Shown: in pieces, positions 5,406 through 21,302 of the stretch
Numbering within the stretch: the first letter of the stretch is position 1
Layout of the letters: each line of letters opens with the position of its first letter
Virus record (IMG/VR): IMGVR_UViG_3300045988_187870
Direction: 5' to 3' (one strand)
Length of the DNA stretch: 64,000 nt
Origin: a virus
The notes under the pieces: model-generated
Databases searched by the model: none
What the model was told of the DNA's origin: nothing
Seen by the model: only the letters and a program-made list of their open reading frames with translations
Program-made: the position numbers and the translations under genes

Positions 5406-5448
5406 AACAATAAATGTACGAAAAGGAAACAAATTCTGAGGGAACAAC

Positions 5449-5877
5449 ATGACATTAAACGAAATATTACAGAACATAACAATCCTCACAAACAACAGTG
5501 CGAGCCCCACCGGTTTTGCATGGGAATGCATTGTCTTATGCGGAATAGCATGCTGTATTATGATTGCATGGCTTATATGCGAGATCGTAAATTATGGACA
5601 TACTTCAGTCAAGATTTTTGCAGGCTTTATGGCAACGCTTTTTGCTGCTTGTATAATAGGCGGCATTTTATTGATTTGCAACGAAGACATGCATCTTGCT
5701 GGTACAGTAGTAAACCTATACGTCAGATTCAACGACGTCACAATCGAAGATATGTCACAGTATTTCAAAATAAGTAATATGACAGCGGCAAATGAAGGAA
5801 TATACGCTGATATAACGCCTATTGCTGAATATAGCATGGAAATTAAGCATGCATTGAACAGCATGGGTGTAATCTAA
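5449..5877 (+). CDS. predicted membrane protein (2-3 TM helices)
   Basis: hydrophobic segments; RBS gagggaacaac then ATG. Confidence 0.5.
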   Translation: MTLNEILQNITILTNNSASPTGFAWECIVLCGIACCIMIAWLICEIVNYGHTSVKIFAGFMATLFAACIIGGILLICNEDMHLAGTVVNLYVRFNDVTIEDMSQYFKISNMTAANEGIYADITPIAEYSMEIKHALNSMGVI

Positions 5878-6246
5878 AGATACACAAATCTCTGATAGAC
5901 ACAGTCTATGGTCTGTCTTCCACAGAACTTAATGCAATCTCCACCAGAAATAACAATCAGTTTTACAAGCATAGACAAAGTAAAACACATCATAAGCGAA
6001 GACATTATAGAAACTTCTATAAATATGCTGGTGTGTCATCACACCACGACAAACAGGATTACGAAGATTGTAATAAATATATCGTTCATTTTCGGCGACA
6101 AAATCGCAAACCTGATAACAATTTCGGCTATCATGATGAGCATTTTGTTGAAACAGAAAACAACTGGAAAGAAACATGAGTCAGAAAATAATATCTGTGG
6201 CACAAGCCACGCCACATCAACATTTCTGAAGAAAGGAAAGAACAAA

Positions 6247-7104: not shown

Positions 7105-7356
7105 CACTTGAAAGAGGTGACAAAACCAACATGATGAATTTCATCATGCCAGACCCTAAAACGTAACCAAAAATAGTATTAAATGCCCCTTGATTCAGGA
7201 AATTGCTATCGATATGTGTAAATCAATGCTGGGCAATGATAATTTCGATACGCAGACATCTTACTGATGTCATGAAGAAAGGAGAATTGACATGACCAAA
7301 AACGAAATTAAGGCAGATTTATGCCTGGGAGCTACTGTTTATTAAAAGGAGTTTTT

Positions 7357-8451
7357 ATGTCAAAACATATATGGGGTTACTGGGACTGCCAGTGTGGGCA
7401 TACGCATATTCGAGGAGACGTCACAGAATGCCCAGGATGCGGTTCTCCGCGTTTAGCAGATACAAAATTTTATGTGGATACATCGGTCAAAGAGTATGTA
7501 GAGGATTCCCAGAAAAATTCAAACCCAAACTGGATTTGCAATTACTGTAATACTCAGAATGCTTCTGCAGACCAAGTATGCAAACAGTGTGGAGCATCAC
7601 GAGAAAAAGATTCTCAGACTTATTTTAATCATGGTGATAGCTCATCAAACAAAAGAATGGTGCAATCTTCAGTTATAGCGCAGTGCAATATGACTAACAA
7701 CGAACAGCCAGCATCTGATAAAGATACAATTTCAAGCAGAATCAGAGCTATTCCTCGACAGGCAAAGTTAGCAATCATATGGACAACCTTAGCAGTGACG
7801 CTAATAGCTTTGTTAGCTTGGCTGTTTATACCAGTCGAGCATCAAATGACAGTTGAAGGCTTTAGCTGGCAACGAAGCATAGCAGTTGAAGAATTAAGAA
7901 CATTTGATGAGTCTGGGTGGTCTCTTCCAACAAATGCTCGTTTGAATTATACTCGTCAGGAGTTTCATCATAATGAAGAAGTCCTAGATCATTATGCTAC
8001 TGAAACTCAGCAGGTTGAGCGTAAGCGCATAACGGGATATGATGAAAGAATTGTAGGATATAGAGATCTGGGAAATGGCCAGTTTGAAGAAGAAACAGTA
8101 AGAGAACCAATCTATGAAACATACTATGAAACAGAGACATATCAGGATCCAGTATACAGAATGGAACCAGTCTATATGACGAAGTACTATTACGAGATAG
8201 ACAGATGGACAAAGACACGCTCAGTAGACACAAGCGATTCAGGTAAAAGCCCGTACTGGGGCAAGATAGCTTTAGTAGACAAAGAGCGACGTGGAACATC
8301 ATCTGAAAGTTATTTCATAAATGGACATATTGAAGATGAATATAAACAATTTTCAATCAATTATGAAGACTGGTCAAGATTATTTGAAGGGGATATAATT
8401 TCGTTTACAACATTTAGATTTGGCAATGAGATTTTGAGCATGACAGCTTAA
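7357..8451 (+). CDS. double zinc-ribbon protein with a central TM helix (MSKHIWGYWDCQCGH...CPGCG...CNYC...CKQCG)
   Basis: four CxxC pairs; TM segment AIIWTTLAVTLIALLAWLFI; RBS aaaaggag. Confidence 0.6.
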   Translation: MSKHIWGYWDCQCGHTHIRGDVTECPGCGSPRLADTKFYVDTSVKEYVEDSQKNSNPNWICNYCNTQNASADQVCKQCGASREKDSQTYFNHGDSSSNKRMVQSSVIAQCNMTNNEQPASDKDTISSRIRAIPRQAKLAIIWTTLAVTLIALLAWLFIPVEHQMTVEGFSWQRSIAVEELRTFDESGWSLPTNARLNYTRQEFHHNEEVLDHYATETQQVERKRITGYDERIVGYRDLGNGQFEEETVREPIYETYYETETYQDPVYRMEPVYMTKYYYEIDRWTKTRSVDTSDSGKSPYWGKIALVDKERRGTSSESYFINGHIEDEYKQFSINYEDWSRLFEGDIISFTTFRFGNEILSMTA

Positions 8452-8465
8452 CAGGAGGAAGTATT

Positions 8466-9350
8466 ATGCTTTACATATGGGAAGATAATATAAATTTACG
8501 TGAAGTCGCAATTGAAAGTAATATGGAATATATAGCCTGTCCGCCAACCTGGTTTAACTCAGAGGCATTTCTGCAGATGAACTTAAACAAATTTAAGGAG
8601 ATTATTCAAAGAGTTGATAATAAGTCTTTAGCAGAGGTTAAAGATCCTATAGCAGACCTTTCAGATAGCTGTAAAACTGTTATCGTCGTATATCGGTATC
8701 CTAACTATATCATCTCCTTGGATTATATGGAATCTTCAGTTGGAGGTGCAATGATTGCAGAACTGTCCAGTATTAGAGATGTAAGAGTAGCTACAGGTCA
8801 TGCAATAGCAGGCTTGCCTTCTAACACACTTGCATACATAATGAATGATGCAGCTGCTCTTCATAAGGATATCAATCAGTGCATTGAAGAGGCATTTAAG
8901 CCTAAAGATAGATCGCTATATTGTAAATCATCTGCTGGAAGTTACAGAACAGAACTTGAGTTTGCAAAGAACATTCAGGTAGTCAGAGGTGACTCCAGAG
9001 AGATGAAGATGCTCTACGATTTTGTCAAGCGTGAAGGAGACATACCTTTAGCAGGAACAAATCTTATGCTAAGTAATTATGAATCTTATAAGTTTCGTAA
9101 TGACCACTATCGGTGCAATAATGTGTACATAACTAATCCATATGATACAGAGTTGGCAGATCCTGCTGTAGCAATGGAGATTATGACAGTGGCTATAACC
9201 GGAGGCTATTTCTTAATCTCAACACTGAAACCGATGCATAACTATTTCACTGAAATGATTGATACACAGGGCAAGCTACGTTTAGTAGGAGACACGTTTA
9301 AGCTTACAATACATAATGAAGCAAGTGAAACTAATCTGTTTGGGAAGTGA
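8466..9350 (+). CDS. hypothetical protein, paralog B (paralog of 4135-5052)
   Basis: same conserved blocks as 4135-5052; RBS caggaggaagtatt. Confidence 0.65.
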   Translation: MLYIWEDNINLREVAIESNMEYIACPPTWFNSEAFLQMNLNKFKEIIQRVDNKSLAEVKDPIADLSDSCKTVIVVYRYPNYIISLDYMESSVGGAMIAELSSIRDVRVATGHAIAGLPSNTLAYIMNDAAALHKDINQCIEEAFKPKDRSLYCKSSAGSYRTELEFAKNIQVVRGDSREMKMLYDFVKREGDIPLAGTNLMLSNYESYKFRNDHYRCNNVYITNPYDTELADPAVAMEIMTVAITGGYFLISTLKPMHNYFTEMIDTQGKLRLVGDTFKLTIHNEASETNLFGK

Positions 9351-9445
9351 GAGATTGAAGCATAACTTGGAAGCAGTTGGAATAATTATCGTATTTTCGG
9401 TTTCACTTTTTATTGTTTTATGTATAATTGGATAAGGAGATATCT

Positions 9446-9919
9446 ATGACGCATTGTTTAAAAACTAAACCGAAATATTTTAACGCAATCCTATCTGGTT
9501 TAAAGACATTTGAGCTAAGAAAGAGTGATCGAAATTATCACATTAACGATGAGCTTATCTTAGCAGAGTATGACACCACATTTACGGGTCGAAAAGTATC
9601 TGCAAGAATTTCATATATCTTAAATGTGGGTGATATTTGTCAGGAAGCTGCTAACTTTGTGATATTAGGTTTAAGCATGCATGATATATCAGAATTTCAA
9701 AATATCTTTGACTATGTTAAGAGCGCTGACTGGAATAACCATGTTTGCTTTGAGCAGTTACGCGCACTTTGGACAGCCTATTGTATACACAATCATTATG
9801 AGTGCGACACATATGCATATGATACAAAGCTGCGAGAATTGTACGAGGAGTATGCACAGCATGATGTTTCCTTAACAGTTGAGCAGTTTGATGAATATAT
9901 GTGTGAACATCTTGTTTAA
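9446..9919 (+). CDS. ASCH/DUF3850-like (PUA-fold) domain protein
   Basis: N-terminus KTKPKYFNAILSGLKTFELRKSDRNY...DELIL.EY matches the DUF3850 pattern; RBS aaggagatatct. Confidence 0.55.
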   Translation: MTHCLKTKPKYFNAILSGLKTFELRKSDRNYHINDELILAEYDTTFTGRKVSARISYILNVGDICQEAANFVILGLSMHDISEFQNIFDYVKSADWNNHVCFEQLRALWTAYCIHNHYECDTYAYDTKLRELYEEYAQHDVSLTVEQFDEYMCEHLV

Positions 9920-9933
9920 TTAGGAGGTACTTA

Positions 9934-10335
9934 ATGTATTTTTCAATGTACGCTACAATCAAATTTAACAGGCCTATAAATAAGGATACTGATTATGTTT
10001 CACCTGGCTCTTATGAAATAGTTTCTGGAGATAAAACATATAGATTTGATTTCGAAACTTATTATGGCAATGTCGATGCGGAAGATAATACAATTCTTCA
10101 TATAGAGTGCATGCATCCCGATGGTTATTGTTTTGAGGATATTGCAAGGCTCACAAAGGATACTTTAGCAGAGATTAAGCAGTTTAGTGAATTTTTCATT
10201 TATATTAATGCATCTGATCTTACACCTATAGCACTAATGGACTGCGACTTTGTTCTTCATGACTTTAACAACGAAGTTATATCATTATCTGAAAATGTCT
10301 GCAGTAAAACTAAATTTTCTTTTTCAGGAGATTAA
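9934..10335 (+). CDS. hypothetical protein (133 aa)
   Basis: RBS ttaggaggtactta then ATG. Confidence 0.6.
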   Translation: MYFSMYATIKFNRPINKDTDYVSPGSYEIVSGDKTYRFDFETYYGNVDAEDNTILHIECMHPDGYCFEDIARLTKDTLAEIKQFSEFFIYINASDLTPIALMDCDFVLHDFNNEVISLSENVCSKTKFSFSGD

Positions 10336-10336
10336 T

Positions 10337-10780
10337 GTGTATAAGATAGTTTATGTACAAAATAATGAATTGCAGGAGTCTACATATTCATTATCATTTT
10401 ATGAAGCGTTAAAGTCAGCAGCAATTTATATACAATTTGCTGACATGCGTGATAACAAATCCCACAAGCTCTTTATTCTAAAAGAAAATAGTAAAACTGG
10501 GTATCTTGAAGAATTTTATAGTGAGATAGGCACAAGTATATCTAAGGATGAGCTAGAGACGACTCTGGGTCCACTTATTTGTGTTAATGCTTCTACAGAA
10601 GACAATATAAACGTGTGGCATGGAATGTACACAAATCAGAACACAGCTATTAAAGCTCTACCTAAGATAGCATTACACTTGAAGCAGCACAAGTCATTGC
10701 TATTTGAACTAACAACCTTTAGCAGTAAGGAAAAGTTAGGCATGTTTGATCAATATGGCAAGGAAGTGGCTTATGGTTGA
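10337..10780 (+). CDS. hypothetical protein (GTG start)
   Basis: open frame following the stop of 9934-10335. Confidence 0.4.
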   Translation: MYKIVYVQNNELQESTYSLSFYEALKSAAIYIQFADMRDNKSHKLFILKENSKTGYLEEFYSEIGTSISKDELETTLGPLICVNASTEDNINVWHGMYTNQNTAIKALPKIALHLKQHKSLLFELTTFSSKEKLGMFDQYGKEVAYG

Positions 10781-11174
10781 TATTTGTTCTGTAAAGACAT
10801 TTAACTATGAGAAGAACTATGATTTAGTTTATATTATAGTGAGAAGTCTTACTGCACTAAGAAATAGTGGAGATCCAATTCTCTCTCGAGGAGTCCAATG
10901 CAAACTGCTAAGTCCGGGGGACATTCTCTTTAAGAAGTACTTAAGTCTGAAGAGAAATGGCAACTGGAATATTGTAACCTTTGAGAATATCTATCGTCCA
11001 GAATTTGAATCTCAAATATCAGAAAGTCAGGAAGCCCAGCTTATGCTCCAGTCATTAGCTTTAGCAGATAAACAAATTGCACTTGTTTGCTATTGTGATT
11101 CTCCATTTCTGTGTCATCGCAGAATTATTGGAGAAATGCTTGAAAATCTCGGGGCAGAGGTTGGATATTATTGA
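10773..11174 (+). CDS. DUF488 family protein
   Basis: C-terminal VCYCDSPFLCHRRIIGEML matches the DUF488 C..CHR motif. Confidence 0.5.
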   Translation: MVDICSVKTFNYEKNYDLVYIIVRSLTALRNSGDPILSRGVQCKLLSPGDILFKKYLSLKRNGNWNIVTFENIYRPEFESQISESQEAQLMLQSLALADKQIALVCYCDSPFLCHRRIIGEMLENLGAEVGYY

Positions 11175-11189
11175 TAAAGAGGTAATTTT

Positions 11190-11447
11190 ATGTTTACAAA
11201 TCGAGCAGAAACAGGCAGAAATAATATCGTAGGAGTGGCTGTGCACGAGTATCGTAAGCAGTTGCGAATCAGCCAGCGCGAACTTGCGGATAGACTGCAG
11301 ATTATAGGCTTGGATATAGACAAGAATGCTGTACAACGTATTGAATCCGGGCAGCGTTTTATAACAGACATTGAGCTAATATATCTAGCACAAGTGTTCA
11401 ATATTACAGTTGAAGAACTTTATGAGGGTAATCAGACACAAATTTAA
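11190..11447 (+). CDS. XRE-family helix-turn-helix transcriptional regulator
   Basis: LRISQRELADRLQ...NAVQRIESGQR HTH; RBS aagaggtaatttt. Confidence 0.75.
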   Translation: MFTNRAETGRNNIVGVAVHEYRKQLRISQRELADRLQIIGLDIDKNAVQRIESGQRFITDIELIYLAQVFNITVEELYEGNQTQI

Positions 11448-11481
11448 CGTATGAATATGCAAACATTTGTTTTGAAATGAG

Positions 11482-11916
11482 GTGATACATCTGAGTGAAA
11501 TACTATATAGAACTGAGTCAGCTTATGGCTCAAAACATAGAGAAATTATTGATGTTATGCAATATGAGATATTTGAGCTAAATAATTCAGATATTCTTGA
11601 TTATCTAATTATTCACCATACTGATGCTTTTGATGTTCATCAGATTAGCAGAATTTATGGTGTCTTTGCTGGCTTAATTAACACAGATAGTGCACAGTAT
11701 GACTTTTGTAGAGAATTGGTAGAAGCTCTTAACAGTTATTACAATGTGCATCTAAAATACTGTTTATGGCTTGCAAGTAAGTCAACAGTACTAGACTTAT
11801 ATAATGCTTCTGAACAGGATATACAGAAATATGAAACATCACCTATTATACTGAGTGATTTGGGTATGGACGGTATGCTTTTTGCCTATGAATCTATGCC
11901 AAGACCTCTAAATTGA
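11482..11916 (+). CDS. hypothetical protein (GTG start)
   Basis: ORF only. Confidence 0.4.
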   Translation: MIHLSEILYRTESAYGSKHREIIDVMQYEIFELNNSDILDYLIIHHTDAFDVHQISRIYGVFAGLINTDSAQYDFCRELVEALNSYYNVHLKYCLWLASKSTVLDLYNASEQDIQKYETSPIILSDLGMDGMLFAYESMPRPLN

Positions 11917-12051
11917 ATGATTATAGTGTATGATATGTTCATATAAGTGTAAAGTCCTTTTACCATATCTCCAACACAGCTGAAATATTATATAAGTATA
12001 CATGTATACTCACAGGGGATATACAGATTACCTTTAGCAGGAGGTTAGATT

Positions 12052-12342
12052 ATGATTCATCGTGACATACGCTATCGTAGGTTCCAGAGACGAAACGCAA
12101 TTCAGCACAAGGTGAAAATTGCTGCCAGCTCATTTAGTTTTTCGCCAGAGTATCTTGCAAATCCCAGGCATGTAGGACAGTGGGCTAAAGGTAAGGTGCA
12201 TTGCTCTTGTCCTTTATGTGCCTGCAAGTCAACAGAGTATTTTGGAGTTCATGATAAGTCTATGCATAATTACAGTGCAAGTGACAGACGCAAGTTCATG
12301 AGCATGCAGGAACAGATTACAGAGTATTATACAGCAGCGTAA
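12052..12342 (+). CDS. small Cys-containing hypothetical protein
   Basis: RBS agcaggaggttagatt. Confidence 0.55.
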   Translation: MIHRDIRYRRFQRRNAIQHKVKIAASSFSFSPEYLANPRHVGQWAKGKVHCSCPLCACKSTEYFGVHDKSMHNYSASDRRKFMSMQEQITEYYTAA

Positions 12343-12377
12343 AGCACCATCTTTTTCAGTTTAGGAGACTATGTGAT

Positions 12378-13166
12378 ATGCGAATAACAACATTTCGTTC
12401 AGGCAAAACAGCAGAGCAGGCAAGAGAACATCTTTTCAAGTATCTAAAGCAGGTATCTTTAGTAGCACCTAAGACAACTGTCATGCCGGATATTCTCGCT
12501 CCTGTGAATGGGAAAGAAACAATAATATCTTTAGTAGCTGATGGTGCAGCAGAAACTGTTGTGAAAGCACGCAGAGAGAATCCAAATGCTAAAATCGCAG
12601 TATTAAACTTTTCCAGTTTTAAACATCCGGGTGGCGGGTTTATGACAGATATGCTTGCACAGGAAGAGAGCTTGTGTTATTGCTCAAATCTGTATTGGGA
12701 ATTAAATAAGCATAGAAATGATTTTTATGCGGTTAACAGTAGCATGCTTAATTCAGGATTATACGCAGACAGGGCTATGCTTTCAGAAAATATTAGTTTT
12801 GTTGCATCAGCACCTGAAAACTATTTGCCTAACAAAGAAATTTGTACAGCAGATGTTATAACATGCGCTGCTCCAAATCTTAATTATATGATGCGAAGAG
12901 GACGCCATTGGGATAAGGAAGTTCTGCAGGCAGTACGGGATCGTATTCATTATGTGAACTCTATCTTAGCAGGACGAAATTACGATATAGTGATTTATGG
13001 TGCCTATGGTTGTGGTGTCTTTAAAAATGATCCTGACTTTGTAGCTAGATGCTTCAAATGGGACCTTCAGCAAAATTATCCCAACTCCTTTAGCAGAGTA
13101 ATATTTGCTATTCCAGATAAGTCAAGCAAGAATTATCTTGCATTCAAGGGGGTGCTCTTTGAATGA
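12378..13166 (+). CDS. PARG-like macrodomain protein (DUF2263/TIGR02452 family)
   Basis: FKHPGGGFMTDMLAQEESL matches the GGG-x6-8-QEE signature of bacterial poly(ADP-ribose) glycohydrolase-like proteins. Confidence 0.6.
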   Translation: MRITTFRSGKTAEQAREHLFKYLKQVSLVAPKTTVMPDILAPVNGKETIISLVADGAAETVVKARRENPNAKIAVLNFSSFKHPGGGFMTDMLAQEESLCYCSNLYWELNKHRNDFYAVNSSMLNSGLYADRAMLSENISFVASAPENYLPNKEICTADVITCAAPNLNYMMRRGRHWDKEVLQAVRDRIHYVNSILAGRNYDIVIYGAYGCGVFKNDPDFVARCFKWDLQQNYPNSFSRVIFAIPDKSSKNYLAFKGVLFE

Positions 13167-13441
13167 AAGTAAAAGATATGTTTATTGAATTTATAAATAA
13201 GACTGAGAGTATCATATCCACAATGGATGAAGACATGAGGATTCAGTGGCTATCTACAAAAGTATCATGCTCAGTGGGAATTATATTGCTGTGTGTGGGT
13301 ACGATACTCAGTTTAGCTGTTGGAGTTACAGCCTGTGCAGCTACGATTCTTTTCTTCAGTATAATGTATTTCTCTATGTCAATTATTATTGGTACTGTGA
13401 CCATTTTATGTATGCCAAAAGAGTCTACTGATAGACTTTGA
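13163..13441 (+). CDS. small membrane protein
   Basis: two hydrophobic helices. Confidence 0.45.
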   Translation: MKVKDMFIEFINKTESIISTMDEDMRIQWLSTKVSCSVGIILLCVGTILSLAVGVTACAATILFFSIMYFSMSIIIGTVTILCMPKESTDRL

Positions 13442-13459
13442 CCAAATTTTAATCAAAAG

Positions 13460-13756
13460 GTGAAATTCCAGCCTGACTGCACAGATTTTGGTAGTTGTTT
13501 TAGTGGATGTTCTATGTATAATCAGTCTACTATTATACCAAATGGCACTATTAATTGTTCAGAAATGTTCTATGATTGTAGTAGTTATGATCAAGAAACT
13601 ATTGTACCTACTAGTGTTAAGAGGACGGATTCTATGTTTAGTTCATGTGAGAATTTTCGTCACAGAGTTCATATCAGTGCAAATCAGCTTTCAGAGGACA
13701 CATTTGATGATTGCAAATATATGAATTCTGATAGTACTACATGTGTATATTTGTAA
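13460..13756 (+). CDS. BspA-type leucine-rich-repeat-like fragment (F..C...I.IP..V..I..F..C)
   Basis: pattern FGSCF...IIPNGTINCSEMFYDCSS...IVPTSVKRTDSMFSSC. Confidence 0.35.
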   Translation: MKFQPDCTDFGSCFSGCSMYNQSTIIPNGTINCSEMFYDCSSYDQETIVPTSVKRTDSMFSSCENFRHRVHISANQLSEDTFDDCKYMNSDSTTCVYL

Positions 13757-13781
13757 TTAATTACATTTAACAAGGAAAGGA

Positions 13782-13964
13782 GTGATCAATATGTCCAGCA
13801 ATCAGAAGATGGCACTGATAATCGCTATCGGCGCTGTTTCTGCAATCGTAGTGGGCGCAATGTGCTATACCGTACCTAAGCTGTTAGCTCTATTCTCAAG
13901 AGCTAATCAACAAACAGCCCTGCAGAAAGGGGTGACAACCATGGACAGAGAAGGCGGTCTGTAA
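13782..13964 (+). CDS. small membrane protein (60 aa)
   Basis: RBS aaggaaaggagtgatcaat; TM helix. Confidence 0.5.
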   Translation: MINMSSNQKMALIIAIGAVSAIVVGAMCYTVPKLLALFSRANQQTALQKGVTTMDREGGL

Positions 13965-14001
13965 TTACCTTGTCCTCTGATTATATCAGAGGACGCATCA
14001 T

Positions 14002-14380
14002 GGGGGCGTAAAGGTTTCGACAGGGTTTTGAAGGTATAGTAAGCGTGTACGGATTGAGTCGTTCCGTTCAAAAGACTCATATCGAATAACATTCGATAGA
14101 CCTGTAGCTCTCGCAGCTTAATGCGATAGGCGTTCACTAGAGCGCTGAAAAGGCACGGAGAGATTGAACTGACGACCTCTGCACTCCGTTGTTTCAAATG
14201 AAATGCCGTCATACTTAATCGAGATGCAGGGTAGCGGTTAAGCATTACTTGCCTGATATGTGACCTGTATGGAGGGTGGTGCCACCAGGCAGGAACTGAC
14301 AACAGTAAAAACACCTACACACGTAGAAAACTATATTGGAAAGATTTTGGACAGGGGTTCGATTCCCCTCGCCTCCACCA
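14002..14380 (+). ncRNA. ssrA: tmRNA (transfer-messenger RNA, SsrA); tag reading frame ends ...VALAA then TAA
   Basis: 5-prime GGGGGCGUAAAGGUUUCGACAGGG and 3-prime GGGGUUCGAUUCCCCUCGCCUCCACCA (T-arm, acceptor, encoded CCA) closely match Bacillus-type tmRNA; internal GUAGCUCUCGCAGCUUAA tag end. Confidence 0.9.
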
Positions 14381-14427
14381 ATATATGTAGACAATCTATT
14401 AGCAGTCACACTTGGAGGTGAGTATCT

Positions 14428-14907
14428 TTGTTACTTGGAGTTCATTTCAAAAACAGCAATATTGGTTTACATGAGCTTACAGAGAACACAATTCTCTTAT
14501 GCGATACTACTGTAGTTAAAGACAGAATAACTAACGATTTAGTAGCTACATTTGTTGATAAGACAGCAGAGCATGTAAACCTTAATGAAGGCTACGAATG
14601 GATTGATAATAACGATGTGAGTTTTAAAAAGATTATGAATTTCCTGCCCACATCAAAATATCAGTTCAATGCACGCAATATTCATATAAATCTTACAGTT
14701 TCGATTGAGCCTGCTATTGTGTATAGTGTAAAGAGTCTATATGACATTTGGTTTGTAAGACTGAGCAGTGATGACAAGCTTTTATTCTATCCTTTAACAG
14801 AATTTGAAAACTATGAGAAGTATAATGACTTAGATGCACTCTATAAAGCAGTAATAGTCGGAAGATTCTCTATAAAGGGAGATGCAAAGGCTATTCCTTC
14901 TGAATAG
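14428..14907 (+). CDS. hypothetical protein (TTG start)
   Basis: RBS ggaggtg 7 nt upstream of the TTG. Confidence 0.5.
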   Translation: MLLGVHFKNSNIGLHELTENTILLCDTTVVKDRITNDLVATFVDKTAEHVNLNEGYEWIDNNDVSFKKIMNFLPTSKYQFNARNIHINLTVSIEPAIVYSVKSLYDIWFVRLSSDDKLLFYPLTEFENYEKYNDLDALYKAVIVGRFSIKGDAKAIPSE

Positions 14908-15110
14908 AGTGGGTGGATACGTTGTTAGAGTTTAGCTATTATGACAGAATAATTCGTTAAACTGTTGCATACAACTGCTTGCTAAGCTCTGATACTCACA
15001 TAGACGATATCCTTATCGACCTAAATTCCTAGATGATTGAAACAAGGGGGTACTACGATGATTAACGATGACAAGCTGAAATCCAAGAAGCACAGACTGG
15101 TACAAACACA

Positions 15111-15767
15111 GTGCCATTAAGATATAACCATAATTGGCTATTGTTTATTATACGAGCTGCAGCAGTAATACTATCTCTTATTTTGCCAGGTATTATTGTA
15201 GACGCCTTCTGTTTGTTCATGCTTTTGTTAGATATTATAACACAAAAAAAAATATGCACTCGGCATGAATTACCGAGCTTTGCAATTGATGTTGAGAGAC
15301 TTATAATTAGTGAAGCTCGACTAACAGGAATGAATACGAATGAAAAAAGTATCACAAATCTACGTGAGGCATGGGATCTAGTTTTAAGAACAATAAATTA
15401 CAAGCTTGACGCTTCCTACTTAGCAGCTATTTGTTTTTGCTTAAATTGTATCAATATGAATAAGGAGACTGACATTGAGATTCCGGAACCTTTAGAGAGA
15501 GCGCTTAAGGAAATCAAAGATCCTATTAGGTTATGTACATATCTATTAAAGCAACCATTGTTTGAACAAGGGGCAGTTACAATTGCTTTAATTGTTGCAA
15601 ATAAAGAATTGATACATACAAAAAGAGGTATTCTTTTGATACCAGAAGAAAAATTCCCAGAATTCAACAGGGAACTTGATGCGTACAGAAAATCAAATGA
15701 TGATAGTCAACTTTATGCTTTCTTATCTTCATGTATCGAACCATTTCCTGAAACTAAAGCAGCTTAG
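15111..15767 (+). CDS. hypothetical membrane-associated protein; start uncertain
   Basis: ORF; a 20-codon ORF with a strong RBS (aagggggt) at 15058 lies upstream in another frame. Confidence 0.35.
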   Translation: MPLRYNHNWLLFIIRAAAVILSLILPGIIVDAFCLFMLLLDIITQKKICTRHELPSFAIDVERLIISEARLTGMNTNEKSITNLREAWDLVLRTINYKLDASYLAAICFCLNCINMNKETDIEIPEPLERALKEIKDPIRLCTYLLKQPLFEQGAVTIALIVANKELIHTKRGILLIPEEKFPEFNRELDAYRKSNDDSQLYAFLSSCIEPFPETKAA

Positions 15768-15864
15768 AGATTGGGTGCATAACATATTTTAATAACCTTA
15801 GCAAACTATGTAATACTTTCTTACCAAAGTATCCTATAGATATAGTAAGAAAGGAATGATTAAC

Positions 15865-16515
15865 ATGAAATGTAGATTACCCAAACAGCAGGAAAAAGAT
15901 TTTATCAAGATAATTGAAGATATCTTTAGCCGTACTGTAAACTCACGCACAGCTCATTATCAGGCAAGTATAACAGAAAAAGAGATTCCAGAGATTTTAA
16001 AACAGATTTATGCAATGAGTATCTTAGCAGTTCCTCATATCAAAAATCTAACACTTGAGCGTCTGGGTAATTATGCAAAATGTTTATACGACTCGTTTAG
16101 CTATCCATTAAAGCAGAATAATAAGCTGACAGATGAAGTGCTCAACAGCATTTTACCTTCAGATCAGCTTAGTGCATGGTGGCATATCTTAACAAAGGAA
16201 AAATCAGAGAATGCTGAATTTATAAGTTACTGTTGCATGTATTTTTGTTGCATTACGCTGTACGCAAGTGCAGAATCTTTAGTAGTTGCAGAAAGTATAC
16301 ATACAGCACTTATTTGCTACTTAGAATCTCTAAAATTGGACTCAGCCTTTGTGACAGGCGGAGCTGTCACTGTTGCATCAAAATGTGGTTGTCAGACAAC
16401 CAAAAAAGACACTTTGCTTGCCGATCCGCTTTCTCACAAGCCGATTAATCAGGAGATTTTTGGACATGTCAACAGCGGGTCAGAAACGCAAGTGGTGTCA
16501 TCATCTCACAGGTAG
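15865..16515 (+). CDS. hypothetical protein
   Basis: RBS aaaggaatgattaac then ATG. Confidence 0.5.
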   Translation: MKCRLPKQQEKDFIKIIEDIFSRTVNSRTAHYQASITEKEIPEILKQIYAMSILAVPHIKNLTLERLGNYAKCLYDSFSYPLKQNNKLTDEVLNSILPSDQLSAWWHILTKEKSENAEFISYCCMYFCCITLYASAESLVVAESIHTALICYLESLKLDSAFVTGGAVTVASKCGCQTTKKDTLLADPLSHKPINQEIFGHVNSGSETQVVSSSHR

Positions 16516-16906
16516 GGATTCATCACCTAAACAGCTACCTTTAGCAGAGTTGAATTCCTGGTACATTACATATCTAGCGAGTTTTGCAGTTCTTTATCCT
16601 ACGCTGGTTTCTGCACAATGCGATGCAAAAATGCATCTAAATAATGTGATCAATAACAAAGGATTTGCATATAAGGATTATCAGATCTCAAATATGCAGC
16701 ATGTTTGTGAAACATACAAAGAGTCTGCTGATAGAAAAACTGAAGAACTTACTAGAATGCATGAAAAATACGCAGAAATTTCTAAAGCTTATTCAGAGCA
16801 GACAAAACAGCCAAAATCATTGACAAAGAAGCTTGAATCAAAGCCATTAACAGTAGTTGCAAAGCCAGAAGTTGCACATGTTGTTGTTGAGAAAAGCAAA
16901 GATTGA
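16466..16906 (+). CDS. hypothetical protein; ends at an in-frame TGA and is followed in the same frame by ORF 16997-17377
   Basis: ORF; overlaps the previous gene. Confidence 0.4.
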   Translation: MSTAGQKRKWCHHLTGRDSSPKQLPLAELNSWYITYLASFAVLYPTLVSAQCDAKMHLNNVINNKGFAYKDYQISNMQHVCETYKESADRKTEELTRMHEKYAEISKAYSEQTKQPKSLTKKLESKPLTVVAKPEVAHVVVEKSKD

Positions 16907-16996
16907 CCTGCAATCATAGATAAACAACGCTCAGAGATTGCAGAATTATCTAGAAGATTAGATGAGGCGTTAAAGCAGCAGCAAGAATCTGATGAT

Positions 16997-17377
16997 ATGA
17001 TAAAAATGTTGTTATCCAATACCAATGAACATCAAATCGAGACGCAGGTGCTTTCAAGTGAAGATAAGCAGCTACTGAAATGCATAAGAGCACACTTTGT
17101 AATGCCTGATTTTAAAGCATTCAGACAACTAAAAGTTCTTATGCCTGGCTCAACATTTGAGTTTGTACCTAAAGAGTCTATTGGAAAGCTTGTTGTTCCG
17201 AAGTCTAAAGAGTTATATCTTTTCTGTACAAGTCATGCTGGTCACTCTGTGTATGAATCATGGTTCAAACAAGTAGCATTCTTAGCAGTACCACATATTG
17301 TCTTTAACAGTTCAAATATTAATGTTATTTGTCATTTGGTATTAGACAATTACAAAAAGAAAGTTCTTCATATCTAG
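16997..17377 (+). CDS. hypothetical protein (possibly a continuation of 16466-16906 through TGA 16904)
   Basis: same frame as the upstream ORF; no clear RBS. Confidence 0.35.
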   Translation: MIKMLLSNTNEHQIETQVLSSEDKQLLKCIRAHFVMPDFKAFRQLKVLMPGSTFEFVPKESIGKLVVPKSKELYLFCTSHAGHSVYESWFKQVAFLAVPHIVFNSSNINVICHLVLDNYKKKVLHI

Positions 17378-17390
17378 CAATATACTATTA

Positions 17391-17424
17391 GCCAGGTCGC
17401 AAATGCGACCTGGCTTATTTCGTT
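17391..17424 (+). terminator. rho-independent terminator (10-bp stem GCCAGGTCGC/GCGACCTGGC, loop AAAT, then TTATTTCGTT)
   Basis: perfect hairpin plus T-rich tail. Confidence 0.7.
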
Positions 17425-17442
17425 ATAGAAAGGCTAGTGATT

Positions 17443-18231
17443 ATGTCTTATAGTTATGATGAAAAACTAAAGATGTTTAATGAGAATCTAGGGCTTGTTT
17501 ATACTGTTGTGTACAAACACTGGGGGTTAAAATATGTGCCTGAGGATGATCTGCTCCAAGAAGGTTTTATGAATTTATGGCTGATTATTGATTTATACAA
17601 CCCTGATAGCGGTACAAAATTTGCAACATATGCTTACGTAGCATTAACAGATAGACTGACTAAATTTACTTTAAAGTATCAGTATGGTAGCTCTATGCGC
17701 AGTTCTTCTTTTCAAGAAGCTATGCCTGCATTGCGTTATGCTAAGTTAAATAACATATCTGTTGATTTAGCATGTGATGCGTTAGGATTTAAAGGCGCTA
17801 AACGAGAATATGCATTGCTCATGGCAAAAGGCAGTCTTCTAGTGGAAAGTCTATCATCACCTGTAGTATCTTCAGACCAGGATTGTGAAACAACACTAGA
17901 GGATATTGTTCCTGATGCATACTCTTTAGCAGATGAGGTATGTGAAAAAGTATCGTCAGAAAATTTAAAGAAGATACTCTATACTGATTTCGTGCAATAC
18001 TGTATCAAAAAACATACAGGGAAGCCGCCTGACTATTTTGAAGATTTAGTAAAAATGTATCTTGATACGATTTTTAATGATGAGCATATCTCTCAGAATG
18101 CTATAAGTAAGAAAATTGGTGTATCTAATACAGTTGTTAGTAAACACTTTAAATGTTTCAAGCAAAATCTCAAGCAATTCATTATACAAAAACATTTGAT
18201 CTCGAGGAGCGTTTCACAATGTTCACACTAA
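17443..18231 (+). CDS. sigma-70 family RNA polymerase sigma factor (region 2 and region 4 HTH)
   Basis: LVYTVVYKHWG...DLLQEGFMNLW...FATYAYVALTDRL (region 2); C-terminal ISQNAISKKIGVSNTVVSKH HTH. Confidence 0.7.
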   Translation: MSYSYDEKLKMFNENLGLVYTVVYKHWGLKYVPEDDLLQEGFMNLWLIIDLYNPDSGTKFATYAYVALTDRLTKFTLKYQYGSSMRSSSFQEAMPALRYAKLNNISVDLACDALGFKGAKREYALLMAKGSLLVESLSSPVVSSDQDCETTLEDIVPDAYSLADEVCEKVSSENLKKILYTDFVQYCIKKHTGKPPDYFEDLVKMYLDTIFNDEHISQNAISKKIGVSNTVVSKHFKCFKQNLKQFIIQKHLISRSVSQCSH

Positions 18232-19758: not shown

Positions 19759-21285
19759 ACATCAAAAGATCACTTACAACATCTTTAGCAGCTTTGCTAT
19801 TAACTATTACCCACCCCCCCCCTAACACCACTGGTTAGTGCAGAAAGTAACAGTATCTCTATAGCACTTAATGATATTTGTACAAGTGGATATTATACTA
19901 TAAAGACTATCGAAGATCATGGCACACATTTAGTAGTTGATGCAGGGGCATGCGAGCATGGTTCTTACGCAACACATTATTATGATGCAGCAACAAATGC
20001 TACAAATATGTATAGTATGCAGTATAGAGGGGAATCAGGGCTAGTAAGAGATAAATATTCTAATGTAACAACAATACAAGCTAAAGAAGTTAATAATCAG
20101 ACAGGTATACCGATATCTTTTACGTTTTCACCACCACTGTATCAGGGTAAATATATTATTCCTGGTACAAAATATACAGTATCTTGGACAGGCGATGGTA
20201 GACATATTCCTATAAAGTTTCTAGGTAAGCTGAATTATGGAGATACAACAAGGACGACAATGTATGACTATATTTTAGGAGATTCTTATTCAGGATCTTT
20301 TACTGCACAGTTGGAATCTTTAGCAGTATTAAAATATGAACCAACTAGTTCAGCGAGTATAATATCTCTACCGAATGCAGCCGAGTCAGAAGTGGAGACT
20401 CCATCATCATATCAAAATCTAAAACTTTCTGTGACATCTAAACTTGCATTATGCCCATATTCTACACATCCAGTGATTTCAGGTGACCATCCTAATATTA
20501 CAACATCAAGCTATGGAGATAATGCATCTCATTCTGGAGGAACCAACTTCACATGTCACACCTGTAATCGTACATGGAATTATTCTGAGAGTGACGCTGG
20601 TTCAGATAATTCAAGCTCAAGTTCTTCAAGAAAGTATGTATATACAAATCATGAAGGACTTCAGCTAAGCCACCAATTCTATTCATCTGAATGTAGAATA
20701 ACATATACATGGGAGCCTTGTCCAATTCACGGGTATATTGGTCCACACGCAGTAGATGAGAAGTATAACGTTTGGGGAGACCTTGCGTATTTTACATATA
20801 CCGACTTTGGGCTTACTCAGGATGTGAATGTTGAAATTGATACTTCTTTTTATCATAGTAAAGATATAAGTGCGATATCTACAGTTGATGGCGCTTATCA
20901 TTACGCTCCGCAATTCGGATATAGTGGTGGCGCCCAAGCAAAGGCAGTCGTTGGTAAGATCTCGGTTGATACCGATAACATATGTGCAGGATATACTAAT
21001 TATGTTTATGCAATATCTGGAACATCAGTGACATACACACCAGTAACTTCTGTAAAGTATAAATATAAAGTTATTGATATGACTTACACAGAAGATGTTG
21101 CAGGGAAAGCACAACGCATCATTTCAGAAGGTGAGACTAGCAGAGCATTTACTTTTTCAATGCCACCGGCAGAAATTAAGATAGTTATTGAGGCCTCAAA
21201 ACTTCCGCAAACTATAATCACTACTACGAATCTAACCAAACAGTATAATAATACAAAATTTAATTTGGGAGCAACAGTTTCATAA
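19755..21285 (+). CDS. variable secreted protein, family member 1: signal peptide (MNIKRSLTTSLAALLL) + C9 tract + mature domain in the +1 frame (currently OFF)
   Basis: strong RBS gtggaggatttgcc; ATG frame stops 5 codons after the C tract; downstream frame open from the tract to TAA 21285; C-terminus ...YNNTKFNLGATVS. Confidence 0.6.
19814..19822 (+). repeat. homopolymeric C9 tract (slipped-strand or transcriptional-slippage site)
   Basis: nine consecutive C read directly. Confidence 0.8.
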
Positions 21286-21302
21286 TAGAAAGGTGGAAAA
21301 TC

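What the first reader, a model, noticed from the sequence alone, without database searches (positions are those of the whole stretch)
14002..14380. A tmRNA gene embedded among hypothetical, mobile-element-like genes
This is a clear ssrA: a Bacillus-like 5-prime end, a tRNA-like 3-prime end with an encoded CCA, and an internal tag ending GUAGCUCUCGCAGCUUAA (VALAA-stop).

No smpB or other housekeeping gene is nearby. The flanking genes are small hypothetical ORFs, a PARG-like gene upstream and unknowns downstream, all co-oriented. Element-encoded tmRNAs are known from some large phages and plasmids and may counter host translational stress or defences.

The coding part of the tag upstream of VALAA (...ITFDRP) looks atypical.

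Alternatively, the 3-prime end of a chromosomal ssrA is a classic integration site, and the downstream DNA could be an island.
Basis: partly seen in the sequence, partly recalled or inferred. Interest (0 to 1): 0.6.

Follow-up and report, generated by a model that had tools for sequence, protein, structure and literature searches.

The report
Extra tmRNA on giant gut element
This is a real, intact ribosome-rescue RNA gene (tmRNA) carried by a very large and very common but undescribed mobile genetic element of the human gut, not by a bacterium's core genome; such element-borne tmRNAs are known from huge phages, so it is a well-supported new example with a few unusual details.

Summary
Confirmed: window 14002-14380 (+) is a full-length one-piece tmRNA (Rfam RF00023, 123.7 bits, E 7e-48). 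It has a 7-bp acceptor stem with G3:U70, an A73 discriminator, an encoded CCA, a canonical T-arm, a long helix 2, PK1, and a tag frame ending ...FDRPVALAA with the stop codon in a hairpin loop.

Relatives carry four diverged versions (types A-D). Comparing them gives 19 base pairs with compensatory double changes, against 2-5 in slid controls, so the RNA is under structural selection.

It is not a housekeeping ssrA. There is no smpB and no core gene within about 74 kb of co-oriented, mostly unknown genes. The same neighbourhood recurs on hundreds of human-gut contigs (up to 417 kb). Neither of two diagnostic tmRNA segments (22 and 28 nt) occurs exactly in any of 185,579 species-representative genomes.

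Relatives often carry two tandem tmRNA genes with different tags; the window is a deletion derivative that keeps one. Some lineages hold recombinant alleles with a broken helix 2.

Unusual features: the likely resume codon is UUC, not GCN. It lies in an 18-nt block that forms a hairpin and is invariant across all four types. Default ARAGORN misses the gene.

I found no support for integration into the ssrA 3' end. Whether the element is a phage or a plasmid/ICE is unresolved. Verdict: a new member of a known kind.

The parts
13791..13964 (+). 57-aa small hydrophobic ORF immediately upstream; a conserved left neighbour of the tmRNA
   Evidence: The exact protein is found in 502 blocks of the assembly collection, always followed by the tmRNA. 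A homologous ORF precedes the type-D tmRNA in the distant relative L101.
13972..13994 (+). Leader hairpin GTCCTCTGAT-TATA-TCAGAGGAC, ending 7 nt before the mature 5' end, with no U-tract
   Evidence: dG -15.8 kcal/mol. Types C and D have hairpins of unrelated sequence at the same place (-14.5 each), 4-7 nt before the 5' end. No sigma-70-like promoter on the + strand and no terminator in 13400-14700. It is also the point where contig L052 switches to Phocaeicola DNA.
14002..14380 (+). tmRNA gene (type A, copy 1), one-piece, CCA encoded
   Evidence: RF00023, 123.7 bits, E 7.1e-48, full length. Among intact alleles 98.4% of structure cells pair, with 15 compensatory pairs; across types A-D there are 19 compensatory pairs against 2-5 in slid controls.
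14002..14008 (+). Acceptor stem 5' strand; pairs with 14370-14376. G3:U70 = 14004:14374, discriminator A 14377, CCA 14378-14380
   Evidence: 7 of 7 pairs, G:U at position 3 in all intact alleles.
14021..14048 (+). Helix 2 5' strand in three segments: 14021-29, 14033-40, 14043-48, pairing with 14341-49, 14330-37, 14319-24
   Evidence: Duplex -20.5 kcal/mol. 8 compensatory double changes between types A and B. Mosaic alleles lose it (-3.8 to -6.2).
14049..14079 (+). Pseudoknot 1: stem 1 ACGGA/UCCGU, stem 2 UGAGUC/GACUCA
   Evidence: Stem 1 has 2 compensatory pairs. Stem 2 has entirely different but complementary sequences in types A, B/D and C; the type A duplex is -6.6 against -0.4 shuffled, and cross-type combinations give -0.3 to -3.4.
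14080..14098 (+). Perfect 8-bp palindromic hairpin UAUCGAAU-AAC-AUUCGAUA enclosing the resume region. Its first 18 nt (tm 79-96) are invariant in types A-D
   Evidence: The A equivalent to E. coli A86 (14088) sits in the triloop. The hairpin alone folds at -5.2 kcal/mol.
14092..14121 (+). Preferred tag reading frame UUC...GCU UAA, giving (A)FDRPVALAA (9 codons plus stop). The alternative start is GAC at 14074
   Evidence: U at -5 and A at -4 (rule from PMC2481249). PK1 ends at nt 78 as in E. coli. Supported by the Rfam alignment and by analogy with canonical tmRNAs that share the tag end. The paralogue type C keeps 9 codons from the same UUC, FDATEAVAA.
14111..14126 (+). Helix 5 hairpin UCGCA-GCUUAA-UGCGA with the UAA stop (14119-14121) in the loop
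   Evidence: Type C has a different 5-bp hairpin that also presents the stop codon in its loop (read from the type C sequence: GUAGC/GUUAC).
14152..14306 (+). Pseudoknot ring, proposed as PK2 14152-14207, PK3 14227-14264, PK4 14265-14306
   Evidence: PK3 stem 1 has 2 compensatory pairs, PK3 stem 2 has 1, and the PK4 stem has 1-3. PK2 pairs are invariant, so untested. The Rfam alignment is weak here (accuracy 0.60).
14353..14369 (+). T-arm AGGGG / UUCGAUU / CCCCU
   Evidence: 5 of 5 pairs; G:C to C:G compensatory change in types B, C and D.
14428..14907 (+). 159-aa ORF of unknown function directly downstream; in two-copy relatives it lies between the two tmRNA genes
   Evidence: It is absent where the tmRNA abuts the 15102 junction (L052, L074).
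15102..15107 (+). Deletion junction (6-nt microhomology) where relatives carry 1.35 kb more, including tmRNA copy 2 (type C)
   Evidence: L088 against the window: 1-6317 = window 8791-15107, and 7667-10174 = window 15102-17591. Copy 2 scores 96-97 bits in L060, L088, L089, L092 and L096.

Best explanation
Window 14002-14380 encodes an intact accessory tmRNA belonging to a very large mobile genetic element of the human gut. The element is seen on contigs up to about 417 kb and is prevalent and undescribed. It is either huge-phage-like or a conjugative/plasmid-like element, and its host probably uses Shine-Dalgarno sequences (Bacillota-like). The gene is not the host's housekeeping ssrA.

Proposed mechanism, with shown and inferred steps marked:
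1. Inferred: the gene is transcribed by read-through with the co-oriented upstream genes.
2. Shown: a structurally conserved leader hairpin sits 4-7 nt before the mature 5' end. Inferred: RNase P makes the 5' end. Shown: the CCA is encoded.
3. Shown: the alanine identity set (G3:U70, A73) and a canonical T-arm are present. Inferred: host AlaRS charges the RNA, and host SmpB and EF-Tu deliver it to stalled ribosomes. No smpB is encoded in the 64 kb.
4. Inferred: translation resumes on the internal frame, most likely at UUC (14092), and appends (A)FDRPVALAA. The ...LAA end is the usual degradation signal.
5. Inferred: the element thereby adds ribosome-rescue capacity, or substitutes its own, while it burdens or fights the host's translation system.

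Shown: the gene belongs to an element-specific tmRNA family of four types (A-D). The ancestral arrangement in this lineage had two tandem genes with different tags (FDRPVALAA and FDATEAVAA). The window kept copy 1 after a 1.35-kb deletion.
For: Identity:
- RF00023 full length, 123.7 bits.
- All tRNA-like-domain features are present.

Selection on structure:
- Types A against B: 15 compensatory pairs, 98.4% of cells paired, slid controls 0-2.
- Types A-D: 19 compensatory pairs against 2-5.
- PK1 stem 2 and helix 5 are replaced by different complementary sequences in the paralogues.

Selection on the tag:
- Two paralogues with 11 nucleotide differences both keep 9 codons from the same UUC.
- Both keep an A-x-A-A end and a stop codon in a hairpin loop.

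Accessory and element-borne:
- No SmpB or any core gene among 79 ORFs or in 10 kb further upstream.
- All genes are co-oriented, at 34-41% GC.
- The window is 100% identical to part of a 319,751-bp contig.
- The neighbouring ORFs occur in 119 and 502 blocks of gut assemblies, on contigs up to 417 kb.
- Neither of two diagnostic segments (a 28-mer spanning the tag end and helix 5, and a 22-mer of the type-B PK1) occurs exactly in any of the 185,579 GTDB species representatives.
- A distant relative (PARG 42% identical) keeps a tmRNA in the same micro-synteny, with the tag block 100% identical.
- Copy number varies between 1 and 2, and some lineages carry helix-2-broken recombinants. That is tolerable for an accessory gene, not for a sole ssrA.

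Precedent:
- tmRNAs are reported in huge phages, phage G and Bxz1-like mycobacteriophages, and second ssrA alleles occur in genomes and plasmids (PMC7162821; PMC12484599; PMC4131195).

Host type:
- Strict SD motifs precede 18 of 29 element genes, against a 6% background and 0 of 9 Phocaeicola genes.
- The flotillin is FloT-type.
Against: - No expression, aminoacylation or tagging data exist.
- The likely resume codon (UUC) is not the usual GCN/G-start codon, and it is base-paired in an 8-bp hairpin. In E. coli, extra pairing around the resume codon abolishes activity (PMC2481249), so efficient tagging is not guaranteed.
- ARAGORN rejects the gene at default thresholds.
- The close relative L097 has no tmRNA within 10 kb of its PARG gene, and mosaic alleles with a broken helix 2 are common, so the gene is dispensable in some lineages.
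- Related regions lie on contigs of 0.94, 1.34, 3.67 and 3.82 Mb, so the element may reside in a chromosome. I could not see its ends or the host's own ssrA/smpB.
- The type of element is unresolved: no terminase, portal or integrase is in view, and the one capsid-like gene lies in a dispensable indel.
Confidence: 0.8

Rival explanations
1. It is the host bacterium's own chromosomal ssrA, and the flanking DNA is one or more genomic islands integrated at it.
For: Closely related regions sit on contigs of 0.94-3.82 Mb. One contig (L052) joins a type-B copy, 54 nt downstream of rpsP, to genuine bacterial chromosome. ssrA is a classic integration target (PMC4131195).
Against: - There is no second copy of the 3' end (3 or fewer mismatches) in the 64 kb.
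- Both flanks are conserved element DNA in every long contig and in a distant relative.
- No core gene lies within about 24 kb upstream or 50 kb downstream.
- In relatives the duplicated copies are complete genes whose two halves have co-evolved, not 3' fragments.
- The L052 chromosome is Phocaeicola, whose genes lack SD motifs (0 of 9) while the element's genes have them (62-71%). The ordinary Phocaeicola rpsP locus has no tmRNA. The L052 join lies upstream of the gene, not in its 3' end.
- The tmRNA is absent from all GTDB species representatives at two diagnostic segments.
- Lineages with a broken helix 2 exist.
Confidence: 0.07
2. It is a decoy or regulator and not a tagging tmRNA. It would be charged and bind SmpB, but because its resume codon is non-canonical and sequestered in a hairpin it would mainly titrate SmpB or ribosomes and damp host trans-translation. 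The TLD-only RNA of mycobacteriophage DS6A has been suggested to act this way.
For: The likely resume codon is UUC, not GCN, inside an invariant 8-bp hairpin. Pairing around the resume codon inactivates E. coli tmRNA (PMC2481249). The DS6A precedent and inhibition by TLD-like RNAs are noted in PMC4131195.
Against: The tag frame is maintained in two diverged paralogues, with the same length, a canonical hydrophobic ...LAA/...VAA end and the stop codon in the helix 5 loop. PK1 to PK4 and helix 2 are all kept by compensatory change, which a mere SmpB sponge would not need. The A equivalent to E. coli A86 is exposed in the hairpin's triloop, and the hairpin is only -5.2 kcal/mol.
Confidence: 0.1
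3. It is a decaying pseudogene or recombination remnant with no function.
For: Mosaic alleles (type B/C 5' part joined to a type A 3' part) have lost helix 2 (-3.8 to -6.2 against -20.5 kcal/mol) and score only 73-89 bits. One of them (L074) also has an acceptor-stem mismatch. The relative L097 lacks the gene.
Against: The window's allele is the intact type A: 123.7 bits and every helix paired. Types A to D differ by 19 compensatory double changes, which requires continued selection. Its sequence is identical in at least 6 independent assemblies.
Confidence: 0.03

Closest known systems
tmRNAs encoded by huge phages (Al-Shayeb et al. 2020, PMC7162821) and by Bacillus megaphage G (PMC12484599; tag AKLNITNNELQVA)
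   Same: A complete one-piece tmRNA carried by a very large, mostly uncharacterised mobile genome, lying in a non-coding gap between unknown genes, and presumably relying on host SmpB and AlaRS. Relatives of this element carry genes such as a P-type Ca-ATPase that have been reported in 200-447 kb gut huge phages (PMC12880540).
   Different: Phage identity is not shown here. No terminase, portal or reliable capsid gene is in view, the element is absent from IMG/VR, and its secretion ATPase best matches a conjugal-transfer TadA family. The family has two tandem paralogues with different tags and a non-GCN resume context. Default ARAGORN, the tool those studies used, misses type A.
Mycobacteriophage tmRNAs (Bxz1, Cali, Catera and others) and the TLD-only RNA of DS6A (Hudson et al. 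2014, PMC4131195)
   Same: An accessory tmRNA on a mobile element, in addition to the host's own.
   Different: Different host phylum and much smaller phages. This gene is full length, unlike DS6A.
Canonical bacterial SsrA (E. coli; Bacillus subtilis)
   Same: The architecture matches element for element: acceptor stem with G3:U70, T-arm, helix 2, PK1 ending at nt 78, U/A at -5/-4, a short tag ending ALAA, the stop codon in helix 5, and three further pseudoknot-like modules.
   Different: No adjacent smpB or core genes. The likely resume codon is UUC (E. coli uses GCA; for B. subtilis GGC is from my memory). The resume region is locked in an invariant 8-bp hairpin. Copy number is variable.
Second or third ssrA alleles in genomes and on plasmids (PMC4131195)
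   Same: Additional tmRNA genes besides the housekeeping copy.
   Different: Here the copies form an element-specific lineage of four types that recombine with one another.
ssrA-targeting integrative islands (attL/attR with a duplicated ssrA 3' end)
   Same: A tmRNA gene at a boundary of variable DNA. One contig (L052) shows a switch to foreign DNA next to it.
   Different: There is no 3'-end duplication and no integrase next to the gene. The only junction seen lies in the leader hairpin upstream of the gene and involves a host whose translation signals do not fit the element.

Membership tests
tmRNA (Rfam RF00023, one-piece) | Full-length match to the covariance model above the curated gathering score | tested here: met
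   123.7 bits against 47, model 1-374 of 374, E 7.1e-48.
tmRNA (Rfam RF00023, one-piece) | tRNA-Ala-like domain: 7-bp acceptor stem with G3:U70, A73 discriminator, 3' CCA, T-arm with a GGUUCGAnUCC-type loop | tested here: met
   GGGGGCG/CGCCUCC with G:U at pair 3 in all alleles, then ACCA; AGGGG-UUCGAUU-CCCCU.
tmRNA (Rfam RF00023, one-piece) | Long helix 2 joining the tRNA-like domain to the pseudoknot ring, maintained in evolution | tested here: met
   -20.5 kcal/mol; 8 compensatory pairs between types A and B.
tmRNA (Rfam RF00023, one-piece) | Pseudoknot 1 immediately upstream of the resume region | tested here: met
   Stem 1 has 2 compensatory pairs. Stem 2 is complementary in all types with unrelated sequences. 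It ends at nt 78, as in E. coli.
tmRNA (Rfam RF00023, one-piece) | Short internal reading frame ending in a hydrophobic ...(L/V)AA degradation signal, with the stop codon in the helix 5 loop | tested here: met
   ...FDRPVALAA-UAA, with the stop in the loop of UCGCA/UGCGA. The paralogue reads ...FDATEAVAA.
tmRNA (Rfam RF00023, one-piece) | Resume-codon context: A at -4 and U at -5, single-stranded, with the resume codon usually GCN or another G-start codon | tested here: inconclusive
   U86/A87 precede UUC at nt 91 with the correct spacing. But the codon is UUC and is paired in an 8-bp hairpin. ARAGORN prefers an upstream GCC in types B-D that type A lacks.
tmRNA (Rfam RF00023, one-piece) | Pseudoknots PK2-PK4 downstream of the tag | tested here: inconclusive
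   PK3 and PK4 stems have 4-6 compensatory pairs. PK2 pairs never vary. The pseudoknotted second stems are proposed by eye. The Rfam alignment is weak in this region.
tmRNA (Rfam RF00023, one-piece) | Alanylation, SmpB binding and trans-translation activity | not testable with these tools
   Needs biochemistry or genetics.
Housekeeping chromosomal ssrA | Single conserved copy among core genes (often near smpB), present in the species' reference genome | tested here: not met
   No SmpB or core gene among 79 ORFs or in the 10 kb upstream. Diagnostic 28-mer and 22-mer are absent from 185,579 species representatives. Copy number is 0, 1 or 2 among relatives.
Phage-encoded tmRNA | The carrier genome is a phage (capsid, portal, terminase, tail genes) | tested here: inconclusive
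   The only capsid-like gene (5908-7104, phrog_422 at 4e-63) lies in a 2.25-kb indel that L009 and L097 lack. No terminase or portal is in the 64 kb. The element is not in IMG/VR. A relative shares a Ca-ATPase reported in huge gut phages.
ssrA-targeting integrative island | Direct repeat of the ssrA 3' end at the far boundary, and an integrase next to the gene | tested here: not met
   No second copy of the 3' 23-mer with 3 or fewer mismatches in the 64 kb. No integrase family among the 79 ORFs. Only the window, not the whole element, could be searched.

The most novel reading that the evidence does not exclude
The element family runs its own specialised trans-translation module. This would consist of two tandem tmRNA paralogues that write different tags (FDRPVALAA and FDATEAVAA) and that start at a non-alanine resume codon held in an invariant 18-nt block that forms a hairpin. 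That hairpin could act as a switch, for example opened only by a particular SmpB, ribosome state or element factor. The element, not the host, would then decide when rescued proteins are tagged and which protease pathway they enter. Recombination between the two copies continually creates hybrid alleles. The carrier would be a prevalent, undescribed giant element of gut Bacillota of about 0.4 Mb that current virus and plasmid catalogues, and ARAGORN-based annotation, have missed.
Probability: 0.15. Interest if true: 0.7.

Novelty: new member of a known kind. Interest (0 to 1): 0.5.

Why it matters
Mobile-element tmRNAs are known but barely studied. This family would be a good place to study them, for four reasons.
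1. It sits on an element found in hundreds of human-gut assemblies.
2. It offers natural 'experiments': four co-evolved types, one-copy and two-copy states, and recombinants with a broken helix 2.
3. It has an unusual, invariant resume region that bears on how the reading frame is set on tmRNA, a question previously addressed mainly by E. coli mutagenesis.
4. Standard ARAGORN-based annotation can miss or mis-tag such genes, so surveys of translation genes in huge phages and plasmids probably undercount them.

If the gene works as proposed, it supports the idea that very large elements supplement ribosome rescue during their own replication.

Tried and rejected
1. Deposited phages and plasmids. 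Megablast of 14-25 kb found nothing. A concatenated 2,900-aa tblastn of 12 neighbouring proteins gave only three marginal hits.
2. Exact-pattern scans. The tag and helix 5 28-mer, and the 'foreign' PK1 22-mer, gave no hits in the GTDB representatives. Three patterns gave no hits in IMG/VR. The donor of the mosaic segment was therefore not a sequenced host; it turned out to be the element's own paralogues.
3. Inocle (24-32% GC, oral Streptococcus), Jug phages (27-30% GC) and pMMCAT (about 100 kb, present in PLSDB) were each considered as the carrier and rejected.
4. I first took the phrog_422 capsid hit as proof of a phage. I withdrew this because the gene lies in a 2.25-kb indel absent from relatives and is truncated in many cluster members.
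5. I read the L052 junction as attB x attP integration into the Phocaeicola rpsP terminator, which would have placed the tmRNA under rpsP read-through. I downgraded this after the Shine-Dalgarno test and after failing to find the reciprocal junction among the 22 longest contigs. It is reported as unexplained.
6. Classifying the element by structure failed. The 305-aa candidate has only 5 homologues among 1.8 billion representatives, AlphaFold gave pLDDT 36, and there were no PDB sequence hits.
7. A DGR around the RT was not found: no template/variable repeats.
Full report
OBSERVATION

The Rfam tmRNA covariance model (RF00023) matches window 14002-14380 on the + strand over its full length, at 123.7 bits (gathering score 47) and E 7.1e-48. 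It is the only Rfam family found in the 64 kb. The sequence shows:
- a 7-bp acceptor stem GGGGGCG/CGCCUCC with G3:U70;
- an A discriminator and an encoded CCA;
- a canonical T-arm;
- a three-segment helix 2;
- a frame ending GUA GCU CUC GCA GCU UAA.

ARAGORN at default settings reports nothing. With relaxed thresholds it recovers exactly 14002-14380 but picks an implausible tag, VKHYLPDM. The miss is therefore a tag-finding problem, not a defect of the tRNA-like domain.

IS THE RNA UNDER SELECTION?

The exact neighbouring proteins led to many related contigs, a tag-pattern scan of metagenomes added more, and a PARG homologue led to a distant relative. Together they hold four full-length tmRNA types:

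| Type | Where | Rfam bits | Tag read from UUC |
|---|---|---|---|
| A | window and many contigs | 122-128 | FDRPVALAA |
| B | L052 | 114 | FDRPVALAA |
| C | second, tandem copy in L060, L088, L089, L092, L096 | 96-97 | FDATEAVAA |
| D | L101, L102 | 115-116 | FDRPVALAA |

I counted an explicit structure derived from the window sequence.
- On the intact alleles (types A and B), 98.4% of cells pair and 15 pairs change on both sides. With the 3' partners slid by 1-3 columns the figure is 0-2, and the shuffle mean is 3.8.
- On types A-D, 19 pairs change on both sides, against 2-5 slid and 4.8 shuffled.
- The compensatory changes fall in helix 2a/b/c (8 pairs), PK1 stem 1, PK3, PK4 and the T-arm.
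- PK1 stem 2 and the helix 5 hairpin that holds the stop codon are replaced by different, still complementary sequences in the paralogues. The column counts miss this because of indels.

One caveat: the structure was derived from one of the sequences counted, which inflates the percentage paired. It does not inflate the count of double changes.

THE TAG AND THE RESUME CODON

The C-terminal part, ...FDRPVALAA plus stop, is secure. The start is not.

I prefer UUC at window 14092, for four reasons.
1. PK1 ends at nt 78, exactly as in E. coli. U86/A87 occupy the places of E. coli U85/A86, the nearly invariant A that sets the frame 4 nt before the resume codon (PMC2481249).
2. Rfam aligns AAUAAC to the consensus AAUAAu.
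3. Canonical bacterial tmRNAs that share the same tag ending read ...CGAAUAGUC|GCC AAC GAC UAU CCU GUA GCU..., against ...CGAAUAACA|UUC GAU AGA CCU GUA GCU... here.
4. Paralogue C keeps exactly 9 codons from the same UUC.

The alternative comes from ARAGORN. On types B, C and D it starts at an upstream GCC, giving ADHYRITFDRPVALAA and ANYYRITFDATEAVAA. In type A a 3-nt indel has removed that GCC, leaving GAC at 14074. That position lies inside the 3' strand of PK1 stem 2, so I consider it less likely, but it stays in frame and cannot be excluded.

Two features are unusual. The preferred resume codon is not GCN or another G-start codon. And the resume region sits in a perfect 8-bp hairpin (14080-14098), whose first 18 nt are the longest internal block invariant in all four types. 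The A86 equivalent is exposed in the triloop. In E. coli, extra pairing around the resume codon abolishes activity, so this hairpin may modulate function. That is inference only.

CONTEXT: NOT A HOUSEKEEPING ssrA

- All 79 substantial ORFs in the window are on the + strand, and GC is 34-41%.
- Pfam, PHROGs and NCBIfam recognise few of them: a PARG-like protein, ASCH, DUF488, an ECF-type sigma factor, a DHH phosphoesterase, a FloT-type flotillin, a GNAT acetyltransferase, a group-II-intron-type reverse transcriptase, and a Tad-like locus whose ATPase best matches a conjugal-transfer TadA family.
- There is no SmpB and no core gene.
- The 10 kb upstream of the window continues in the same style.
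- The window is identical to part of a 319,751-bp gut-metagenome contig.
- The ORFs flanking the tmRNA occur in 119 and 502 blocks of public assemblies, on contigs up to 417 kb, with the tmRNA at varying distances from the contig ends.
- Nothing similar exists among about 50,000 deposited phages or about 72,000 plasmids or in IMG/VR.
- Two diagnostic tmRNA segments are absent from all 185,579 GTDB species representatives.
- A distant relative, with PARG only 42% identical, keeps a tmRNA in the same micro-synteny: small membrane ORF, tmRNA, 249-aa ORF. Its tag block is 100% identical.
- A closer relative (L097) has no tmRNA within 10 kb of its PARG gene.

COPY NUMBER AND RECOMBINATION

Five contigs of 49-417 kb carry two tmRNA genes about 1.6 kb apart, type A followed by type C. 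The window lacks 1.35 kb relative to them, with the join at a 6-nt microhomology (15102-15107). It is therefore a deletion derivative that lost copy 2.

Other lineages (L003, L045-L050, L065, L074) hold mosaic genes with a type-B/C 5' part joined to a type-A 3' part. In these:
- the helix-2 duplex energy falls from -20.5 to between -3.8 and -6.2 kcal/mol;
- Rfam scores fall to 73-89 bits;
- L074 also has an acceptor-stem mismatch.

This pattern fits an accessory gene family that recombines within the element. It does not fit an indispensable single ssrA.

INTEGRATION-SITE HYPOTHESIS

There is no second copy of the 3' 23-mer (3 or fewer mismatches) in the window. Both flanks are conserved element DNA wherever I looked.

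One 16.6-kb contig at 5x coverage (L052) joins Phocaeicola chromosome to a type-B tmRNA. The chromosome is 99.3% identical to an ordinary Phocaeicola contig, with RelA/SpoT, an OPT transporter and S16. The switch occurs inside the rpsP terminator hairpin, at a 9-nt identity (TCCTCTGAT) with the tmRNA's leader hairpin.

That could be an attL junction. Against it:
- the element's genes carry strict Shine-Dalgarno motifs (18 of 29, and 22 of 31 in L101, against a 6% background), whereas the Phocaeicola genes have none (0 of 9);
- a relative encodes chemoreceptors and CheX, which I would not expect in non-motile Bacteroidales (my own knowledge, not tested here);
- no reciprocal junction was found.

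I treat L052 as unexplained: either a chimera or a rare event.

WHAT CARRIES THE GENE

This is unresolved.

Evidence for a huge phage:
- nucleotide-metabolism genes;
- dense, co-oriented small genes;
- a relative carrying the P-type Ca-ATPase reported in 81 gut huge phages of 200-447 kb (PMC12880540).

Evidence against:
- absence from IMG/VR;
- a conjugation-type ATPase and ParA-like genes;
- no terminase or portal in view;
- the one capsid-like gene (5908-7104, phrog_422) lies in a 2.25-kb indel missing from L009 and L097, and is truncated in many cluster members.

Related regions also lie on contigs of 0.94-3.82 Mb, so a chromosomally resident form is likely. A structural route to classification failed.

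MECHANISM

Shown:
- all sequence and structure determinants of a chargeable, SmpB-compatible tmRNA;
- a maintained tag frame;
- a structurally conserved leader hairpin 4-7 nt before the 5' end in types A, C and D, with unrelated sequences;
- no promoter-like or terminator-like site around the gene (using a sigma-70 consensus only).

Inferred:
- read-through transcription and RNase P processing;
- charging by host AlaRS and delivery by host SmpB and EF-Tu;
- resumption at UUC and tagging with (A)FDRPVALAA for proteolysis;
- a benefit to the element through extra or substitute ribosome rescue.

COMPARISON AND VERDICT

Element-borne tmRNAs are documented in huge phages (PMC7162821), phage G (PMC12484599) and Bxz1-like mycobacteriophages. 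Extra ssrA alleles occur in genomes and plasmids (PMC4131195).

This gene meets every structural membership criterion for tmRNA except a canonical resume codon. It is a new member of a known kind. It has some noteworthy specifics: tandem paralogues with different tags, an invariant hairpin over the resume region, natural hybrid alleles, high prevalence in the human gut, and invisibility to default ARAGORN. By the term counts, the two recent huge-gut-phage papers do not contain the word tmRNA.

Interest is moderate (0.5).

Noticed in passing
L052:11378-11431 compared with window 13972-14001 and L084:6553-6600: Contig L052 switches from Phocaeicola chromosome (44.9% GC) to element DNA (35.3% GC) inside the rpsP terminator hairpin, at a 9-nt identity (TCCTCTGAT) with the tmRNA leader hairpin. 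The two hairpins match at about 20 of 24 positions. It is either a real recombination junction or a chimera; Shine-Dalgarno usage argues that Phocaeicola is not the normal host.
   Followed up: partly
L003, L045-L050, L065, L074 (for example L050:9568-9953): Natural mosaic tmRNA alleles (type-B/C 5' strand plus PK1, joined to a type-A 3' part) have lost helix 2. They occur in several independent assemblies, and L074 also has an acceptor-stem G:G mismatch.
   Followed up: yes
window 5080-7332 (ORF 5908-7104): An HK97-type major-capsid-like gene (phrog_422 at 4e-63; about 36% identical to capsids of small Streptococcus/Clostridioides siphophages) lies in a 2.25-kb indel that is absent from L009, L047 and L097. 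It is truncated to 130-285 aa in many cluster members, so it looks like dispensable cargo and not the element's own capsid gene.
   Followed up: partly
window 45338-45446: Three tandem copies of a 38-nt unit, each containing a GC-rich hairpin (GGCTGCAGGAT-TATCCTGCAGCC), sit in the gap just before the Tad-like locus. They could be terminators, iterons or a regulator-binding array.
   Followed up: no
window 45466-50849: A Tad/Flp-like secretion or pilus locus: a 347-aa ORF, a ParA/CpaE-like ATPase, a CpaF-like ATPase (best NCBIfam match: TadA family conjugal-transfer ATPase) and two TadB/C-sized membrane proteins. Homologues of the ATPase form a graded, unnamed family (84% down to 31% identity) on metagenome contigs of 120-260 kb.
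   Followed up: partly
window 36336-37568, and L041:8208-9416 (about 1.8 kb upstream of the window start): Two reverse transcriptases. The one in the window best matches group II intron maturases (1e-42), but Rfam finds no intron RNA and there are no DGR-type template/variable repeats nearby.
   Followed up: partly
window 58983-64000: An ORF with an N-terminal signal peptide runs open to the end of the window (at least 1,672 aa). It is a giant secreted or surface protein directly after the Tad-like block.
   Followed up: no
window 3599-4059: A 237-bp unit is repeated 1.9 times (78% identity) inside the DUF4379 treble-clef zinc-finger / HNH-like gene (3339-4073), matching the three DUF4379 stretches seen by Pfam.
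   Followed up: no
window 20008-22776: Two adjacent paralogous Cys-rich proteins (425 and 400 aa) vary between assemblies. They are called as 341, 388, 424, 451, 493-494 or 508-510 aa, and are sometimes fused, which suggests a fast-evolving or recombining surface-protein pair.
   Followed up: no
L097:13279-19347: A syntenic relative from Hadza gut samples (contigs up to 468 kb) carries two methyl-accepting chemotaxis proteins and a Tpt1 RNA 2'-phosphotransferase where the window has the tmRNA region. It has no tmRNA within 10 kb of its PARG gene.
   Followed up: partly
window 39280-40197: A 305-aa protein has only five homologues among 1.84 billion representative proteins. AlphaFold gave no usable model (pLDDT 36).
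   Followed up: yes
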